From Candidatus Altimarinota bacterium (GTDB taxonomy: Bacteria > Patescibacteriota > Gracilibacteria > UBA1369 > GCA-2718715): 64,000 nucleotides of DNA. The position numbers were made by a program, and so were the translations under genes. The stretch lies in NCBI GenBank assembly GCA_041242255.1, contig JBESAV010000001.1, positions 896,001-960,000 on the forward strand, read 5' to 3'. Below the pieces are notes generated by a model that searched no databases, was not told where the DNA came from, and saw only the letters and a list, made by a program, of their open reading frames with translations. Positions 51,249 to 64,000 of this stretch are shown here, piece after piece (within the stretch, counting starts at the first letter, position 1; each line of letters opens with the position of its first letter).

Positions 51249-52307
51249 ATGAACTCACAAATTTTTAACGAACTCTCTACAAACTTAACCCTAATTCTAG
51301 GATCGTCAGCATTTACTTTCCTTTTAGTTACAACTCTAACTGGACCATTCACCAGAATTTTAAAAAAATTCCAATTCGGCCAACAAATCCGTGAAGAAGC
51401 CATGGACGGAAAAGATGCAAAACTTTTTAAAGATCTTCACAAACACAAAAAAAACACCCCAACAATGGGAGGATTACTCATATGGGGGTCAATCCTAGTT
51501 TTATCAATCGTGACATTCATTCTACAAGAACTAGATATCATCCAGTACGGACTAATCAACAGAAGAGAAACATACCTTCCTTTATTTACACTTTTCTCAT
51601 TTGGACTTCTTGGACTTGTAGACGACATTTTCAATGTAAAAAAAATCGGAACAGTCAAAGGAATAAGATCTCTTCCCAAACTAACCTGGATGTTACTTCT
51701 CAGTGGATTAGGAGCTTGGTGGTTCAATACGAAACTTGGTTACAGCAGCATCGACCTACTAGGAATGAACCTAGAGCTAGGTGTATTCTACATACCTCTT
51801 TTCATTCTTTTTGTAACTGGATTTGCCAACGCTGTAAATTTTACTGATGGACTAGACGGCCTTGCAGCAGGACTATCAATCATGTCATTTGCCTCACTTG
51901 GTTTCATAGCCTTCCTGAACAGCCAATGGATACTATTCACCTTCTGTGCCAGCCTCTGCGGAGCAATAGCAGGGTTTCTATGGAACAACATACCACCAGC
52001 CAAATTCTTTATGGGTGACACCGGAGCTCTCAGCCTTGGAGCAACCATGGCCGTCACAGCTTTCATGATAGATGAAGTCCTTTTATTACTTTTCATTGGA
52101 TTTATTTTCATCATCGAGACTCTATCAGTTATCATCCAACTAACTTCAAAAAAATTACGTAATAAAAAAGTATTCCACATTGCACCACTACATCATCATT
52201 TTGAATATCTTGGATGGCCAGAGTTTCGTGTAACGATGCGTTTCTGGACCATAAGTATGTTCTCATGCATGCTTGGACTGATCCTAACTCTAGCCAACAT
52301 CATCTAA
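51249..52307 (+). CDS. mraY: Phospho-N-acetylmuramoyl-pentapeptide transferase
   Basis: TPTMGG, GLVDD, NAVNFTDGLDGL, FMGDTG, APLHHHFE. Confidence 0.96.
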   Translation: MNSQIFNELSTNLTLILGSSAFTFLLVTTLTGPFTRILKKFQFGQQIREEAMDGKDAKLFKDLHKHKKNTPTMGGLLIWGSILVLSIVTFILQELDIIQYGLINRRETYLPLFTLFSFGLLGLVDDIFNVKKIGTVKGIRSLPKLTWMLLLSGLGAWWFNTKLGYSSIDLLGMNLELGVFYIPLFILFVTGFANAVNFTDGLDGLAAGLSIMSFASLGFIAFLNSQWILFTFCASLCGAIAGFLWNNIPPAKFFMGDTGALSLGATMAVTAFMIDEVLLLLFIGFIFIIETLSVIIQLTSKKLRNKKVFHIAPLHHHFEYLGWPEFRVTMRFWTISMFSCMLGLILTLANII

Positions 52308-58994: not shown

Positions 58995-59015
58995 CATTCA
59001 AACTAGAAAAAGAAG

Positions 59016-59219
59016 TTATGCTTTTGCAGCCTCTTTTTTCTTTGTTGTTTTCTTAGCAGTAGTTTTTTTAGCTACTTTTTTCTTATCTTTCTTTGCATCT
59101 TTTGCTTCTTCCTCTCTTCTTTTTCTAGCTAAGAATTTGTTTCTTCTTTTTCTCTTTTTTGCTTTAGGAAAACTTTTCCCTACAAAACAATGTTGTTTTG
59201 ATGATGATCTATTACTCAT
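59016..59219 (-). CDS. Small highly basic Lys/Arg-rich protein (67 aa)
   Basis: KAKKRKRRNKFLARKRR and AKKTTAKKTTKKK; has its own terminator. Confidence 0.75.
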   Translation of the reverse strand: MSNRSSSKQHCFVGKSFPKAKKRKRRNKFLARKRREEEAKDAKKDKKKVAKKTTAKKTTKKKEAAKA

Positions 59220-59318
59220 TTCAAATGATTTACTTATTAGTGCCGCAAATATACAGATTTGCCAAACCTAAATCAAGTAATTATAATTTCGACACAATTC
59301 AAAACTGATTTATAAATA

Positions 59319-60035
59319 ATGCGCGAAAGACAACAAAAAATACTCAAAGCCATAATTCAAGAATTCATTAAGTCAGCTCAACCTGTTGGATCAAAAACCA
59401 TCATGGTTGGCTACAACTTTCAAGTAAGCCCTGCCACTATTCGTAGCGATATGGCCTCTCTAGAAAAAGAAGGCTTAGTTATTCAGCCACATACTTCAGC
59501 TGGAAGAATTCCTACAGACCTAGGGTACAGAGTTTTTGTTAACGACCTCCTCGACCTAGAAGAAGCAAGAAAAATTGCCAAACCACTACTTCAAGATGTA
59601 CGTCAAAAATTCCTGAAAGAACAAGTCAAAAAACGTATCCAAGATGCTGTATCAGTTCTATCAGAATCAACTCAAAACATCAGTTTTGCCACATTTCCAG
59701 ATTCAAGAGCCTTTTACTTAGGACTTAGTAACGTTCTAAAGAAACCAGAATTTTTCCAAGACCCACTTCAAGCCAGTCAAGTTATAGAAGTTTTTGAACA
59801 CAACGACAACTTCCTAAAAACAATCGACTCATTAGAGATAAGCCCAAACAAATCAGAAATATTCATCGGACAAGAAAATATTATCCCCGAAATCCAAAGT
59901 TGTAGTATGATCATATCCAAATACGCCCACCAAGACATCCAAGGTTATATCGGAATACTTGGGCCAACTAGAATGAATTACGCTACAAACTCTGTAATTC
60001 TCGAAGAAATAACTAAACTAATCAATCATGAATAA
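59319..60035 (+). CDS. hrcA: Heat-inducible transcription repressor (short form)
   Basis: RQQKILKAII, PVGS, SPATIR..M..LE, QPHTSAGRIPT, GILGPTRMNY. Confidence 0.95.
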   Translation: MRERQQKILKAIIQEFIKSAQPVGSKTIMVGYNFQVSPATIRSDMASLEKEGLVIQPHTSAGRIPTDLGYRVFVNDLLDLEEARKIAKPLLQDVRQKFLKEQVKKRIQDAVSVLSESTQNISFATFPDSRAFYLGLSNVLKKPEFFQDPLQASQVIEVFEHNDNFLKTIDSLEISPNKSEIFIGQENIIPEIQSCSMIISKYAHQDIQGYIGILGPTRMNYATNSVILEEITKLINHE

Positions 60036-60510
60036 AGACGACAAAAAAACTGAAACTACAGAACAAGATATTCAAACTCTTCAAGCAGATCTAGAAAATA
60101 TGACTAACACTGCCAAAAGAGCCTTAGCAGATCTTCAAAACTTCAAAAGACACGCCGAAGAACAACGCTCAACTCTTATGAACATGGGGCAAATCGACAT
60201 TATTACCAAAATAATGCCAATCTACGACAACCTTCAAAGAGCCATCTCACAAACCCCAGAAGAAATAAAAGATAACGACTGGGTAAAAGGAGTTCATAGT
60301 ATCCAAGAACAATTCCTCAAACTCCTCCAAAACTCAGGCCTAGAACTTCTTCCTGGAACCGGAAAACAAGCTGACCCAAACCACCACGAAATCATCACAG
60401 CAGTTCCAGGAGCACCTCAAAACCAAATCATAGAAACCCTAGAGCAAGGCTTCACATTTAACGACAAATTAATCAAACCATCAAAAGTAGTTGTAGGTTC
60501 AGATCAATAA
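60028..60510 (+). CDS. grpE: Nucleotide exchange factor GrpE
   Basis: RALADLQNFKR, DNLQRA, DPNHHE, GF......IKPSKVVV. Confidence 0.93.
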   Translation: MNKDDKKTETTEQDIQTLQADLENMTNTAKRALADLQNFKRHAEEQRSTLMNMGQIDIITKIMPIYDNLQRAISQTPEEIKDNDWVKGVHSIQEQFLKLLQNSGLELLPGTGKQADPNHHEIITAVPGAPQNQIIETLEQGFTFNDKLIKPSKVVVGSDQ

Positions 60511-60532
60511 AAAGCCTCTTCAGAGGCTTTTT
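60509..60532. terminator. Bidirectional terminator
   Basis: AAAAAGCCTC-ttca-GAGGCTTTTT. Confidence 0.85.
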
Positions 60533-60534
60533 CT

Positions 60535-61497
60535 TTACCTTCTTGGTGGCCTACCACCAGGTAACTCACCACCTGCCCCTCCAGGTGCTGCTTCTACAAA
60601 CTCTCCCTTCAAACATCGAGGAACATATGGATATTCATTTGTAATGAAGTATACATATTCATCACCTACAAAACCTCCATTACACTCATCCAAATCACCA
60701 CTACCTTCCACATAATTCCAATCAGACGTAAATGTTCCAGCTGGTGAGTTTTCATCAACAGATACTACATTTCCACCACCAGGGGTTGTATAACTACAAT
60801 TTACACCACTTCTATCATTTCCATCTAAAAAATAACTAGACTCATAAGCACCCGATTTCGAATAAACCATTAAATGTCCATCAGATGCAAACCCCACATG
60901 AACTATATCGTCATTCGAATCAAAGGCTGAAACAAGCATCTCCGAAACTCCATGATAATGATAAGCTCCACTTGGTTGAACATGGGCATTATTAAAGTCC
61001 AAACCAAGATCAGTCACATCTTGCAAAGCTTCAATTCTATACTGCACACCGTTATCACAATAAGCAACTTCAGCAGTTCCAGGCTCAAACTTAACACCAT
61101 TTAAAGCAACTCCTGGAGTCCTTGCCTCTTTACTAACTCCAGTATAAACAGGATTCAAAGCAAACTCATATCTATCACTTTGCTCTTGAATAGTATTTGG
61201 ATTTCCAGAATTCGGAAAAGCACCAGTCTCATGATTTGGCAATGCATTAGAAGTCATTACTCTTTTATCCCCAACCAACTCTACTCGAACTTGAGTGCCT
61301 GTTGCTTGATTGTCAATCCCATAATCACCAAGAAAATCACTTTCAAAAGCACTTTGTACAACATTTTCTTCTACCAAAGCCTCATCAGCCAGCTCAATCT
61401 CAACTGGAGCAACAGAAGGCTCCATACTCAATACATATATCCCACCTACCAAAACAACCACACCTCCTAACACTGATATAAAAGTATTCATTTTCAT
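60535..61497 (-). CDS. YHYH domain protein, N-terminally anchored
   Basis: SNALPNH.TG.FP...NPN, GVALNGV, NNAHVQPSGAYHYHG, GDLDECNG, YPYVPRC. Confidence 0.9.
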   Translation of the reverse strand: MKMNTFISVLGGVVVLVGGIYVLSMEPSVAPVEIELADEALVEENVVQSAFESDFLGDYGIDNQATGTQVRVELVGDKRVMTSNALPNHETGAFPNSGNPNTIQEQSDRYEFALNPVYTGVSKEARTPGVALNGVKFEPGTAEVAYCDNGVQYRIEALQDVTDLGLDFNNAHVQPSGAYHYHGVSEMLVSAFDSNDDIVHVGFASDGHLMVYSKSGAYESSYFLDGNDRSGVNCSYTTPGGGNVVSVDENSPAGTFTSDWNYVEGSGDLDECNGGFVGDEYVYFITNEYPYVPRCLKGEFVEAAPGGAGGELPGGRPPRR

Positions 61498-61501
61498 AAA
61501 C

Positions 61502-61942
61502 TTAAATTAAACCACTCGTAGCTAAAAAATATCCGACCCCAGCAGCAAAACAAGCAATCCATACCAACTTCCAAATATTCATCTCAAAATTATTTGGCAT
61601 TCTCTGAATAGCACCATCTCTAACAGGATTTAAACTAACATCAGTTTTTTTGCTATTAACTAAGTTCATACTCCCTTTCACATCTGGCTCAACCGTATCT
61701 TGATTAGAACCTAAATACTTCACTCTAACATTAGATTCATCAAATTCATCCGTTTCAATACTATCAAAAAAACCACTAGGCTTACGATTTTCAAACACAT
61801 CTAGTTTACCATCTCCATCACTATCTAAAAATCTTCTAAACTCTTCTGGAACATCCTCCAAAGAGGTGTACTCCTTGTCTCCAACTCTATAAACCGTATT
61901 ATCAGTAAACAAAGAACCAAACTCAACCTTTAGTTTTTTCAT
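61502..61942 (-). CDS. Hypothetical protein with EF-hand-like loop and C-terminal TM
   Basis: DSDGDGKLDVFE; C-terminal IWKLVWIACFAAGVGYFLA; ATG 61942 or 61960. Confidence 0.7.
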   Translation of the reverse strand: MKKLKVEFGSLFTDNTVYRVGDKEYTSLEDVPEEFRRFLDSDGDGKLDVFENRKPSGFFDSIETDEFDESNVRVKYLGSNQDTVEPDVKGSMNLVNSKKTDVSLNPVRDGAIQRMPNNFEMNIWKLVWIACFAAGVGYFLATSGLI

Positions 61943-61991
61943 AAATAGAATTAATTTCATCTATTCTACATCATTTTAAATCTCAATCTAC

Positions 61992-62019
61992 TTGACATAT
62001 TGTAAATCTAAAATAAAAT
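61992..62019 (+). promoter_or_regulatory. Sigma70 promoter of small-ORF cassette A
   Basis: TTGACA (61992-61997)-N16-TAAAAT (62014-62019). Confidence 0.65.
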
Positions 62020-62076
62020 AACCAAGTACTTATTAGTCAGGATTGGCCTGTGCTAATACTTCAATTGGAGGACAAA

Positions 62077-62211
62077 ATGTCTGAGTACGAAAGTAAGGCT
62101 GCCATCGACCATGAATATGTATGGCTCAACGAGAAAATCAAAACTGAAGATCAAAAACGAGAAAAAAAAGATAAGCCTAAACCAAAAGATATAGACCCTC
62201 ACATCAAGTGA
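62077..62211 (+). CDS. Small charged protein A (44 aa), not in the ORF track
   Basis: GGAGG SD at 62067-62071; MSEYESKAAIDHEYVWLNEKIKTEDQKREKKDKPKPKDIDPHIK; flanked by promoter and terminator. Confidence 0.7.
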   Translation: MSEYESKAAIDHEYVWLNEKIKTEDQKREKKDKPKPKDIDPHIK

Positions 62212-62227
62212 GACTTGTACTCCACCC

Positions 62228-62257
62228 AACCGCCGTCATATGACGGCGGTTTTCTTT
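62228..62257 (+). terminator. Intrinsic terminator of cassette A
   Basis: Perfect 24-bp palindrome AACCGCCGTCATATGACGGCGGTT followed by TTCTTT. Confidence 0.85.
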
Positions 62258-62300
62258 AATATCCAATTTAAAATTTAAACAAACCATTCTATCCTAAAGC

Positions 62301-62441
62301 TTATACTTGCACTGCATTGATAATCAAATCATAGACCTGAACTTGAATCTTCCTAAGTAAAATAAAACTAGCATCCAAAAGTCCTCCTCTTTCATCCCGC
62401 AACTTATCAACTATTTCTTCAGCTAATTTTTCTAAATTCAT
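62301..62441 (-). CDS. Possible small protein (46 aa), not in the ORF track
   Basis: MNLEKLAEEIVDKLRDERGGLLDASFILLRKIQVQVYDLIINAVQV; G/T-rich codons like other minus-strand genes; fills the gap between cassettes. Confidence 0.45.
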   Translation of the reverse strand: MNLEKLAEEIVDKLRDERGGLLDASFILLRKIQVQVYDLIINAVQV

Positions 62442-62507
62442 GTCTTCAATCACATCAACCTTTCCATTTCCAAACTTTCACACCTAATGCAATAAATCTA
62501 TTTAAAA

Positions 62508-62536
62508 TTGACAAAATTAAATTCCTAAAATAAATT
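62508..62536 (+). promoter_or_regulatory. Sigma70 promoter of small-ORF cassette B
   Basis: TTGACA (62508-62513)-N17-TAAATT (62531-62536). Confidence 0.6.
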
Positions 62537-62599
62537 CACGAATATCTTTCTCAGAAGATCAAGCATTCCGCTTGCGTCACGAGAAGATAAGGGGAAATC

Positions 62600-62773
62600 A
62601 TGGAAGACTTCGAGGAACTTAGAAGACAACAAGAACTACAAGAAGACGCTGAAGACCTGAAATGGTCTCCACAAAAGAACAAACACCATAAACGCAGAGA
62701 ACAAAAACCTCATAACCACCACCTCGACCCACCAACTAAAATTAACTTCAACGAGGACCTACCATTCAAATAA
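62600..62773 (+). CDS. Small charged protein B (57 aa), not in the ORF track
   Basis: AAGGGG SD at 62589-62594; MEDFEELRRQQELQEDAEDLKWSPQKNKHHKRREQKPHNHHLDPPTKINFNEDLPFK; flanked by promoter and terminator. Confidence 0.7.
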   Translation: MEDFEELRRQQELQEDAEDLKWSPQKNKHHKRREQKPHNHHLDPPTKINFNEDLPFK

Positions 62774-62786
62774 AACTTCCCCACTC

Positions 62787-62812
62787 AAACCGACCCTCAA
62801 AAGTCGGTTTTT
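62787..62812 (+). terminator. Intrinsic terminator of cassette B
   Basis: AAACCGAC-cctcaaaa-GTCGGTTT followed by TT. Confidence 0.8.
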
Positions 62813-62841
62813 CCTTGAATTATAAATTCATAAAATTTAAA

Positions 62842-62868
62842 CTAGCACTCTCTAAAAATGAGTGCTAA
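62842..62868 (+). promoter_or_regulatory. CIRCE operator (HrcA binding site) upstream of dnaK
   Basis: CTAGCACTC-N9-GAGTGCTAA, one mismatch to TTAGCACTC-N9-GAGTGCTAA; overlaps a putative promoter TTGAAT (62815-62820)-N17-TAAACT. Confidence 0.92.
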
Positions 62869-62904
62869 TATCAAGTTACAAATTAAAATTTAATCACTAA
62901 TTAA

Positions 62905-64000
62905 ATGGGAAGAATTATAGGTATCGATCTAGGTACAACTAATTCATGTTTCGCAATCATGCAAGGTGGTGAAGCAACAGTTATCAACAACCAAGAAGGT
63001 AACCGTACTACTCCATCCATGGTTGCCATGAAAGATGAAGAAAGATTAGTAGGTACACCTGCCAAAAGACAAGCAGTTGTAAATCCACTAAACACTATTT
63101 TCTCAGCTAAAAGATTAATTGGTCACAAGTTCGACGAGATCAAAGACATCGTCGACAAACTTCCATATGAAGTAAAAAAAGGACCAAAAGGTGAATGTCT
63201 TATCATCATGAATGGTAAAGAATACAGACCAGCTGAAATCTCAGCAATGGTACTCCAAAAAATCAAATCAGACGCCGAAGCCTACCTAGGAGAACCAGTA
63301 ACTGATGCAGTTATAACTGTTCCAGCTTACTTCGACGACTCTCAAAGAAAAGCAACCAAAGACGCAGGAAAAATCGCTGGGCTAAACGTACAAAGAATTA
63401 TCAACGAACCAACAGCTGCTTCCCTAGCCTACGGTATCGACAAAGAAGGCGGAGACAAAAAAGTAGCAGTTTACGATTTAGGTGGAGGTACATTCGACGT
63501 ATCCATCCTTGAGATCGCCGACATAGACGGCGAAAAACAAATCGAAGTACTAGCCACAAACGGTAACACACAATTAGGTGGAGATGACTTCGACAACGTT
63601 ATAACTCAACACATTTTAGACGAATTCAAAAAAGACCAAGGTATTGATCTTTCTAAAGACAAAGCAGCACTTCAACGTATCAACGAAGCTGCTGAAAAAG
63701 CTAAGATCGAGTTATCTTCAGCTCAAGAAACTGAAGTAAATCTTCCATTCCTTACCGCCGACGCATCAGGTCCAAAACATCTAAATCTCAAAGTAACAAG
63801 AGCCAAACTTGAAGAATTAGTAGATGAACTTCTAGAAAAGACAGTGGAACCATGCAGAACAGCTATCAAAGATGCTAAAATCTATGAATCGGACATCGAC
63901 GAAGTAATCCTAGTTGGAGGAATGACTCGTATGCCAAAAGTAGCAGAAAAAGTTAAATCAATCTTTGGTAAAGAACCACACAAAGGTCTAAACCCTGACG
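62905..64000 (+). CDS. dnaK: Chaperone DnaK (Hsp70), runs off the window end; not in the ORF track
   Basis: [66 protein letters not shown]. Confidence 0.97.

What the first reader, a model, noticed from the sequence alone, without database searches (positions are those of the whole stretch)
62022..62599. Shared covarying RNA hairpin in both cassette leaders
Seen: leader A (62035-62054) reads AG-U-CAGG-[AUUGG]-CCUG-UG-CU and leader B (62557-62578) reads GA-U-CAAGC-[AUUCC]-GCUUG-CG-UC. Both have a 5-nt AUUnn loop, a stem opening CA/UG, a U opposite YG 1x2 internal loop, and compensatory flanking pairs (AG/CU vs GA/UC). Each sits in a longer stem ending next to the SD: UAUUAG/CUAAUA in A, UAUCU-U-UCUC/GAGAAGAUA in B. 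In B the AUCUU segment has two alternative partners (AGAAGAU at 62553 and 62582), which is switch-like. Inference: a cis-regulatory motif (protein-binding site, thermometer or switch), or the RNAs themselves are functional.
Basis: partly seen in the sequence, partly recalled or inferred. Interest (0 to 1): 0.7.

Follow-up and report, generated by a model that had tools for sequence, protein, structure and literature searches.

The report
Recurring leader hairpin before small genes
The two look-alike RNA hairpins are real and belong to a set of about ten similar hairpins that sit just behind strong promoters and ahead of small orphan genes in this tiny uncultured bacterium, probably a shared mRNA stability or control element whose partner is unknown.

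Summary
ViennaRNA draws the "1x2 internal loop" as a U.G wobble plus one bulged pyrimidine.

Taken as a pair they are only suggestive. Fold z-scores run from -1.3 to -2.8. A covariance model built from hairpin A alone does not find B. Rfam has no match.

The 1.0-Mb genome settles it. The same architecture, RR-U.G-(Y bulge)-C-G-stem-loop, occurs 7 times in 76 kb of intergenic DNA. Shuffles give 0.18 and the reversed control gives 0. Looser variants bring the family to about 11. Most copies lie 15-82 nt behind TTGACA-N16/17-TAnnnT promoters and ahead of SD-led orphan small ORFs, as A and B do. Five family members give the five most stable leaders among 102 promoter-like sites.

A related species keeps hairpin A at 30 of 32 bases while the flanks diverge.

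The thermometer and switch readings are not supported. No copies were found in family or order relatives, which are Peregrinibacteria.

Best reading: a lineage-specific 5'-leader hairpin that protects the mRNA 5' end, is recognised by a factor, or both. Function is untested.

The parts
61992..62019 (+). Promoter of cassette A: TTGACA (61992-97), 16-nt spacer, TAAAAT (62014-19)
   Evidence: 11 of 12 matches to consensus; one search shows variants in the spacer and -10 region (62002, 62017) in related strains
62031..62058 (+). Leader hairpin A. Lower stem UAUUAG/CUAAUA, U62037.G62052 wobble, bulged U62051, upper stem CAGG/CCUG, loop AUUGG.
   Evidence: -9.7 kcal/mol, z -2.83; 62032-62063 kept with 2 differences in a diverged cassette; 62051 U>C in other strains
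62067..62211 (+). SD GGAGG (62067-71) and small ORF A (ATG 62077, stop ends at 62211; 44 aa; KAAIDHEYVWLN motif)
   Evidence: homologue P0003 carries the motif twice
62228..62258 (+). Intrinsic terminator of cassette A (10-bp stem AACCGCCGTC/GACGGCGGTT followed by a T run)
62508..62536 (+). Promoter of cassette B: TTGACA (62508-13), 17-nt spacer, TAAATT (62531-36)
   Evidence: (5 changes at 62517-62524 in the spacer of a related strain, with both hexamers unchanged)
62543..62589 (+). Leader hairpin B. Outer helix UAUCU-U-UCUC/GAGAAGAUA encloses the conserved core 62557-62578 (GA-U.G-bulged C62575-CAAGC/GCUUG, loop AUUCC).
   Evidence: -13.8 kcal/mol, z -2.06; no difference listed between 62525 and 62606 in the related strain
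62590..62773 (+). SD AGGGG (62590-94) and small ORF B (ATG 62600, stop ends at 62773; 57 aa, charged, orphan)
   Evidence: only itself in 5.8 billion protein clusters
62788..62812 (+). Terminator-like hairpin of cassette B (AACCGAC / GTCGGTT followed by a T run)
   Evidence: read from the sequence; not listed by the scan

Best explanation
Hairpins A and B are two members of a lineage-specific family of about 11 RNA hairpins in the 5' leaders of this Peregrinibacteria-like genome.

Shared architecture: an AU-rich lower stem that ends in two purine-pyrimidine pairs (AG/CU, GA/UC or AA/UU); a U.G wobble; one bulged pyrimidine on the 3' strand; a C-G pair; 2-4 further pairs that differ between copies; and a 3-6 nt loop.

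Most copies begin within roughly 5-25 nt of the predicted transcription start of a near-consensus sigma-70 promoter. They precede an SD-led orphan small gene that often has its own terminator.

Proposed mechanism (inferred, not shown): the hairpin acts at the RNA level as a 5'-proximal element that protects the mRNA 5' end. Its conserved U.G / bulged-Y / C-G core is probably also the docking site of a common trans-acting factor, either an RNA-binding protein or a nuclease. That would place these small-gene cassettes in one post-transcriptional group. The modules probably spread by local duplication.
For: Shown:
1. The hairpins exist and fold.
2. Strict-descriptor hits in intergenic DNA (75,981 nt): 9, of which 7 have GA/AG outer pairs. 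100 dinucleotide shuffles of the intergenic segments give a mean of 1.79 for all hits and 0.18 for GA/AG (max 2). The reversed genome gives 7 intergenic hits and 0 GA/AG. In coding DNA only 3 of 31 hits are GA/AG. Leaving out A and B, 5 further copies against 0.18 expected gives p of about 1e-6 by my Poisson arithmetic.
3. Among 101 sites with the fixed ends AGTC..GYGCT or GATC..GYGTC, 7 of 17 intergenic sites have a stem of at least 3 pairs and a loop of at most 7. Only 4 of 84 coding sites do.
4. Further variants were found near promoters. 565862 has a 2-pair inner stem. D at 471784 has C-G in place of U.G and the same AUUCC loop as B. E at 51431 has no bulge.
5. 8 of 11 copies lie 15-82 nt behind a promoter-like site with at most 2 mismatches of 12. 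All lie on the sense strand of the next ORF.
6. Of 102 promoter-like intergenic sites, the five most stable 60-nt leaders are all family members: C, 565862, E, A and B.
7. The wobble and the 3'-side bulge exist only on this strand. Stems differ between copies, which fits RNA and not a double-stranded DNA operator.
8. In a related species' cassette (start MSENKA = P0003), 62032-62063 is kept with 2 differences while both flanks fall below 80% likeness. One of the two differences is the bulge U>C, which keeps it a pyrimidine.
Against: - No family member was found outside this genome in GTDB or JGI, so there is no test on independent homologues.
- The yebC leaders of 8 family relatives lack the hairpin seen at 314366.
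- 105 GATC..GYGTC strings from 5 relatives show no excess of stems, judged by eye.
- 15 hrcA-dnaK loci of relatives (111,337 nt) have none.
- The 100% pairing and the invariant U.G and C-G follow from how the copies were selected. They are not evidence.
- The total count of intergenic descriptor hits (9) barely exceeds the reversed control (7). The excess lies only in the GA/AG subclass, and that subclass was defined from A and B.
- The model from A alone did not find B. With model R2, B scores only 10.4 bits, which is within the window's noise.
- Transcription starts are predicted, not mapped. No RNA run was available.
- Nothing identifies a binding factor.
Confidence: 0.55

Rival explanations
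1. Pure 5' stabiliser inherited by duplication. The promoter-leader modules are paralogues. The hairpin only needs to be a stable stem near the 5' end. The shared U.G, bulge and C-G are leftovers of common descent, and no factor recognises them.
For: - Copies occur in nearby pairs: 535716/537778, 594094/597762 and 958035/958557.
- B, 535716 and 537778 are the only 3 of 88 intergenic TTGACA sites followed by AAATT.
- A and C share TTGACATATT, UUAGUC..GUGCUAA and AUUGGAGG.
- The hairpins start close to the predicted 5' ends.
Against: - Stems and loops have diverged completely, yet the wobble, the bulged pyrimidine and the C-G remain. Ascertainment inflates this, because copies were found by requiring those features.
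- 30 of 32 bases of hairpin A are kept in a cassette whose flanks have diverged. That is more than a structure-only constraint needs.
- BLAST finds no DNA-level paralogy of the A/B region within the genome.
Confidence: 0.25
2. Chance resemblance of ordinary leader hairpins, with no shared element.
For: - Modest z-scores.
- The A-only model misses B.
- The strict descriptor is post hoc.
- The reversed control gives 7 intergenic hits of the general descriptor.
- No copies in relatives.
Against: - 7 GA/AG-type intergenic copies against 0.18 in shuffles and 0 in the reversed control.
- 7 of 17 intergenic sites have a stem, against 4 of 84 coding sites.
- Sense orientation behind promoters.
- The top five most stable leaders are all members.
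- Conservation in a diverged cassette.
Confidence: 0.1
3. RNA thermometer or structural switch that controls ribosome access. In B this would include pairing of the pyrimidine-rich loop (AUUCC) with the SD or AUG.
For: - The cassettes lie between grpE and CIRCE-dnaK.
- When the first codons are included, the MFE folds bury the SD. The unpaired probability of 6 of the 7 SD positions scored is 0.02-0.07 in both leaders; the seventh is 0.99-1.0. In B the CAUUCC segment pairs with GGG..AUG.
- The UUCC-containing loops of B, D and 535716 are complementary to GGAA or GGAG in their SD regions. I read this.
Against: - The conserved hairpin itself does not contain the SD or AUG.
- The extended folds are not better than shuffles (z -1.69 and -0.82).
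- The folds are essentially unchanged from 10 to 45 C.
- Most family members lie far from heat-shock genes.
- No ROSE, fourU or other Rfam match.
Confidence: 0.07
4. DNA-level operator, such as a degenerate CIRCE bound by HrcA or another palindrome-binding repressor.
For: - A-type copies end in TTAGTC..GTGCTAA, which is close to the CIRCE arms TTAGCAC..GTGCTAA.
- The position just after the -10 box suits a repressor.
Against: - The arm spacing varies: 24, 26 and 21 nt overall against a fixed 27 in the 5 CIRCE copies of this genome.
- B-type copies have unrelated arms.
- Stems covary in place of keeping base identity. The T.G mismatch and the bulge make a poor double-stranded DNA palindrome.
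Confidence: 0.03

Closest known systems
5'-terminal stabiliser stem-loops of bacterial mRNAs (E. coli ompA 5' UTR; B. subtilis aprE and ermC leaders). Recalled from textbook knowledge, not from a call.
   Same: A stable hairpin within a few nucleotides of the predicted 5' end of a strongly promoted mRNA, upstream of and separate from the SD.
   Different: Those elements are defined by position and stability. They are not known to share a wobble-bulge core across many genes. Here the 5' ends are only predicted and no half-life data exist.
Protein-binding leader hairpins with a bulged base (phage MS2/PP7 coat-protein operators, ribosomal-protein autoregulatory leaders, RAT/LicT). Recalled.
   Same: A short hairpin with variable stem sequence, a conserved bulge and neighbouring pairs, placed in the 5' leader.
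   Different: The bulge is a pyrimidine on the 3' strand next to a U.G wobble. No Rfam family matches. No cognate protein is known. The element sits before about 11 unrelated orphan genes.
CIRCE (HrcA operator, TTAGCACTC-N9-GAGTGCTAA)
   Same: Same locus (CIRCE at 62842-62868 before dnaK). A-type hairpins share TTAG...GTGCTAA.
   Different: The fixed 9-nt spacer and perfect 9-bp arms are not met. B-type copies are unrelated to CIRCE.
RNA thermometers (ROSE, fourU)
   Same: A leader hairpin near heat-shock genes.
   Different: The SD and AUG are not inside the conserved hairpin. No Rfam match. Folds are insensitive to temperature.

Membership tests
RNA thermometer (ROSE / fourU type) | SD and/or AUG held in the hairpin by weak or imperfect pairs | tested here: not met
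   Hairpin A ends at 62058 and its SD is at 62067-71. The outer helix of B ends at 62589, just before the SD.
RNA thermometer (ROSE / fourU type) | Match to the curated Rfam models | tested here: not met
   No such family at E<=10 in 59000-64000.
RNA thermometer (ROSE / fourU type) | Temperature-dependent opening in the physiological range | tested here: inconclusive
   Predicted MFE structures are essentially unchanged from 10 to 45 C. This is prediction only.
CIRCE / HrcA operator | 9-bp inverted repeat TTAGCACTC / GAGTGCTAA with a 9-nt spacer | tested here: not met
   A scan allowing 2 mismatches per arm finds 5 CIRCE sites in the genome and none at hairpin A or B. The A-type span is 21-26 nt, not 27.
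Any Rfam family (riboswitch, leader, sRNA) | Covariance-model match at or near the gathering score | tested here: not met
   Best hits in 59000-64000 and in 6 other family loci are 13-24 bits against gathering scores of 39-134. None overlaps a hairpin.
REP / MITE-like repeated palindromes | Many copies alike in sequence, in either orientation, mostly 3' of genes | tested here: not met
   No other DNA match to 61960-62905 in the genome. Stems differ between copies. All copies are sense and 5' of an ORF.
5'-terminal stabiliser stem-loop (functional class) | Stable hairpin within a few nt of the true mRNA 5' end | not testable with these tools
   Hairpin cores start 15-30 nt after the -10 box in 7 copies. 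No RNA run held the locus, so 5' ends are unmapped.
5'-terminal stabiliser stem-loop (functional class) | The hairpin raises mRNA half-life | not testable with these tools
   This needs an experiment.
Type I toxin-antitoxin mRNA leaders | Small hydrophobic toxin ORF plus an overlapping antisense RNA | tested here: inconclusive
   D, E and 535716 encode 37-56 aa hydrophobic peptides. A and B are charged and hydrophilic. Antisense promoters were not examined systematically.

The most novel reading that the evidence does not exclude
A Peregrinibacteria lineage runs a private post-transcriptional regulon. About ten fast-evolving orphan small-protein genes, several encoding membrane peptides, each have their own consensus promoter and terminator. 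They share a 5'-UTR operator hairpin (RR / U.G / bulged Y / C-G) read by one unknown RNA-binding protein or nuclease. That factor would switch the whole set of small, possibly host-directed, proteins together.
Probability: 0.22. Interest if true: 0.6.

Novelty: new member of a known kind. Interest (0 to 1): 0.45.

Why it matters
Gene regulation in CPR/Patescibacteria is almost unknown. These organisms are uncultured and have few recognisable regulators.

A structured leader element shared by about ten independently promoted small orphan genes would be a concrete, testable handle on post-transcriptional control in such a genome. It could also guide annotation of real small genes.

If it turns out to be only a duplicated stabiliser hairpin, it remains a useful marker of a family of strongly expressed small-gene cassettes, but it is otherwise ordinary.

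Tried and rejected
Rfam. cmscan at E<=10 on 59000-64000 and at E<=1 on six other family loci found nothing relevant.

Homologues of the small proteins.
- ORF A, ORF B and the ORF of cassette C each found nothing in the genomes of the order searched: 200 relatives for A and B, 204 for C.
- ORF B is alone in the 5.8-billion-cluster protein set.
- ORF A has one relative, P0003.

Searches for relatives' DNA.
- JGI metagenome scan with the 24-nt hairpin A pattern: 0 hits.
- JGI scan with the A/P0003 profile: one locus, L011. It is high-GC and lies antisense in a 262-aa ORF, so I judged it a false positive.
- GTDB scan with the same profile: none.
- The 28-nt hairpin A pattern with up to 3 mismatches in all 205 genomes of the order: only G000 itself.

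Covariance models.
- The model from A alone (R1) did not return B.
- The 20-nt model R2 gave 0 candidates in the genome search 'own', because the first-look filter is unsuited to so short a model. On held loci it ranks the family members among window noise.
- The pair counts are circular, because the copies were chosen for pairing. I do not use them as evidence.

Other checks.
- Proteins A and B are not significantly alike (E 0.51). MAFFT of the two leaders is uninformative.
- The CsrA GGA-loop, IRE-like and RAT-like ideas were considered from memory and dropped, because the loop sequences differ.
- Window hit 59291-59310(-) of R2 lies upstream of the promoter predicted there and has an A-C outer mismatch. 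I treat it as noise.
- The look-up of sequencing runs listed no RNA holder.
- Paper search listed 10 of 272 papers. I saw titles and abstract starts only. None concerned Patescibacteria leader motifs. I read no paper, and supplements are closed.

Full report
SETTING

The window is G000:C1:896001-960000 of a single-contig genome of 1,000,477 bp with 36% GC. The HrcA relatives found in GTDB are titled Candidatus Peregrinibacteria, Peribacteria, Gracilibacteria or Patescibacteria group (one record has no taxon in its title), at 50-58% identity.

The local gene order is:
- hrcA (59319-60035) and grpE (60028-60510);
- two minus-strand genes, a YHYH-domain protein and a 152-aa orphan;
- cassette A;
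- a small minus-strand ORF;
- cassette B;
- CIRCE (62842-62868) and dnaK (62905 onward).

In two relatives (G002, G026) grpE is followed directly by CIRCE-dnaK. The cassettes therefore lie in a lineage-specific insertion.

THE OBSERVATION

Each cassette consists of a near-consensus promoter (TTGACA-16-TAAAAT in A; TTGACA-17-TAAATT in B), a leader of 55-65 nt, an SD, a small ORF (44 aa and 57 aa) and a terminator.

ViennaRNA forms both hairpins. The 1x2 internal loop is better described as a U.G wobble plus one bulged pyrimidine on the 3' strand: U62051 in A and C62575 in B.

Stability against dinucleotide shuffles is moderate. Hairpin A has z -2.83, the B core z -1.54, the long B hairpin z -2.06, and the whole leaders z -1.3 and -1.55.

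IS THE A/B RESEMBLANCE MORE THAN CHANCE?

As a pair, only suggestively.
- A descriptor fitted to both hairpins hits only A and B in 2 Mb of both strands, against 0.2 in simulated genomes. It is post hoc.
- I ranked all 4580 sites of compatible architecture by identity to A. B scores 11 by my count. Eight sites score higher, including A itself, and 13 sites score 11.
- A covariance model made from A alone did not return B at E<=10 in the window.
- Rfam has nothing.

THE GENOME-WIDE FAMILY

The top non-self hit of the rank test, at 594094(-), turned out to be a third cassette, C. It has TTGACA-16-TATGAT, then UAUUUUAGUC-UGAG-GUAGG-CUCA-GUGCUAAAAUA, then AUUGGAGG, a 75-aa orphan ORF and a terminator.

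I then used a descriptor that fixes only the core: two Watson-Crick outer pairs, U.G, a bulged Y, C-G, 3-5 further pairs and a loop of 4-7 nt. It gives 40 sites in the genome, of which 9 lie in the 7.6% of the genome not covered by ORFs of at least 100 aa. Seven of those nine have the same purine-purine outer pairs as A or B.
- AG type: A, C, 314366.
- GA type: B, 535716, 66491, 597762.

Controls, all:
- 100 dinucleotide shuffles of the 474 intergenic segments give a mean of 1.79 hits (max 6) and 0.18 of the GA/AG type (max 2).
- The reversed genome gives 7 intergenic hits, none GA/AG.
- In coding DNA, 3 of 31 hits are GA/AG, which is about the share expected from composition.

The excess is therefore specific to the GA/AG class in intergenic DNA. 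Discounting A and B, which defined that class, 5 further copies stand against 0.18 expected.

Among 101 sites with the fixed ends AGTC..GYGCT or GATC..GYGTC, 7 of 17 intergenic sites have a stem of at least 3 pairs with a loop of at most 7. Only 4 of 84 coding sites do.

Relaxed scans add further members.
- 565862(-): AGUC-GG-UGAG-CC-GUGCU.
- 537778(+): AA/UU outer pairs.
- Cassette D at 471784(+): AUAAGC-CUC-AUUCC-GAG-C-GCUUAU. U.G is replaced by C-G and the loop is identical to that of B. It precedes a 56-aa hydrophobic ORF.
- Cassette E at 51431(-): CGUUUAGUC-UAU-GGCUAAACG, with no bulge. It precedes a 55-aa hydrophobic ORF.

CONTEXT OF THE MEMBERS

Eight of the 11 lie 15-82 nt behind the -10 box of a promoter-like site with at most 2 mismatches of 12. 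Two more, 535716 and 66491, have weaker promoter matches that I read by eye. 314366 has none.

All are on the sense strand of the next ORF. In A, B, C and 535716 the start codon follows 20-29 nt after the core.

Of 102 promoter-like intergenic sites, the five most stable predicted 60-nt leaders are C, 565862, E, A and B. D ranks 12th.

The downstream genes are orphans without Pfam domains, except a YebC-family gene at 314366.

Members occur in nearby pairs: 535716/537778, 594094/597762 and A/B. B, 535716 and 537778 are the only 3 of 88 intergenic TTGACA sites followed by AAATT. Both points suggest spread by local duplication of promoter-leader modules. BLAST nevertheless sees no paralogy of the A/B region.

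COMPARATIVE EVIDENCE

No relative in GTDB or JGI carries the cassettes. Public marine runs do hold variants.

- Run X5 comes from a different study. One of its contigs covers 62474-62636 with 9 differences. Five of them are in the promoter spacer (62517-62524). None is listed between 62525 and 62606, so both hexamers and the whole of leader B are unchanged. The middle of ORF B (62636-62717) is replaced by unlike sequence.

- For cassette A, two X5 contigs show changes at 62002, 62017 and 62023, and the bulge change 62051 U>C.

- In runs X1 and X2, a low-depth contig matches only 62032-62063, with 2 differences. One of them is again 62051 U>C. Its flanks fall below 80% likeness. The downstream loose end reads an SD followed by MSENKA, which is the start of P0003, the only protein relative of ORF A.

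So in a diverged homologous cassette the hairpin is the best-conserved noncoding block, and the bulge remains a pyrimidine. This is one relative only, and I could not see its full sequence.

At family level the motif was not found.
- The yebC leaders of 8 relatives lack it.
- 105 GATC..GYGTC strings from 5 relatives show no excess of stems by eye.
- 15 hrcA-dnaK loci, 111,337 nt in all, give only 2 weak hits, both inside ORFs.

MECHANISM

RNA level. The U.G wobble and the 3' bulge exist only on the transcribed strand. Stem sequences differ between copies while pairing is kept, though pairing was a selection criterion.

Thermometer or switch: not supported. The conserved hairpin does not include the SD or AUG. 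Longer folds that do bury the SD are no better than shuffles (z -1.69 and -0.82).

CIRCE: A-type ends (TTAGTC..GTGCTAA) resemble the CIRCE arms. Their spacing varies, however, and B-type ends are unrelated.

My preferred reading is a 5'-proximal hairpin that protects the mRNA 5' end, with a conserved core that is probably read by a common factor. This is inference. The pure-stabiliser version is the main rival.

WHAT REMAINS OPEN

Transcription starts are unmapped. There is no expression data (no RNA holder was listed). There are no independent homologues for a covariation test, and no candidate binding protein.

One paper search (I saw titles and abstract starts only) showed nothing on such a motif in Patescibacteria.

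Noticed in passing
window 60535-62840: The stretch between grpE and CIRCE-dnaK holds a YHYH-domain gene, a 152-aa orphan, the two cassettes and a small reverse ORF. It is absent in relatives G002 and G026, where grpE abuts CIRCE-dnaK. It looks like a lineage-specific insertion into the heat-shock operon.
   Followed up: partly
window 62077-62211; protein P0003: The only relative of ORF A is a 55-aa protein that carries the KAAIDHEYxWLN motif twice. This suggests a small repeat-forming peptide family with a fast-evolving charged tail. In a related strain the middles of both ORF A and ORF B are replaced by unlike sequence.
   Followed up: partly
G000:C1 ~314400-314480 (L019) and L020-L024, L026, L027: Upstream of yebC, between it and a divergent gene, 7 of the 8 family relatives (not L025) and G000 share a conserved inverted repeat of the form CAC(C/T)CACCATT-n-TAGGTGAG...CTCACCGTCAA. 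It looks like the operator of a transcription factor.
   Followed up: no
G000:C1 597700-597760(-) and 537800-537850(+): The long leaders behind hairpins 597762 and 537778 share a second block (AAAAUCAGAUAUUCUGCUUAUUAG against AAAUUCAGAUGUUCUGCCUACUAUG). These may be paralogous structured leaders or small RNAs.
   Followed up: no
G000:C1 264451, 639619, 660124, 688878 and window 62842: The genome has five CIRCE elements. None precedes hrcA itself, whose promoter at 59259-59287 has no CIRCE.
   Followed up: no
G000:C1 471870-472040, 51170-51335, 535972-536082: Three of the hairpin-led cassettes (D, E, 535716) encode 37-56 aa strongly hydrophobic peptides. They could be small membrane proteins or type I toxin-like peptides.
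   Followed up: no
window 62228-62251: The terminator of cassette A is a perfect palindrome (AACCGCCGTCATATGACGGCGGTT). It matches itself on the minus strand, but only the plus strand has a T run after it.
   Followed up: no
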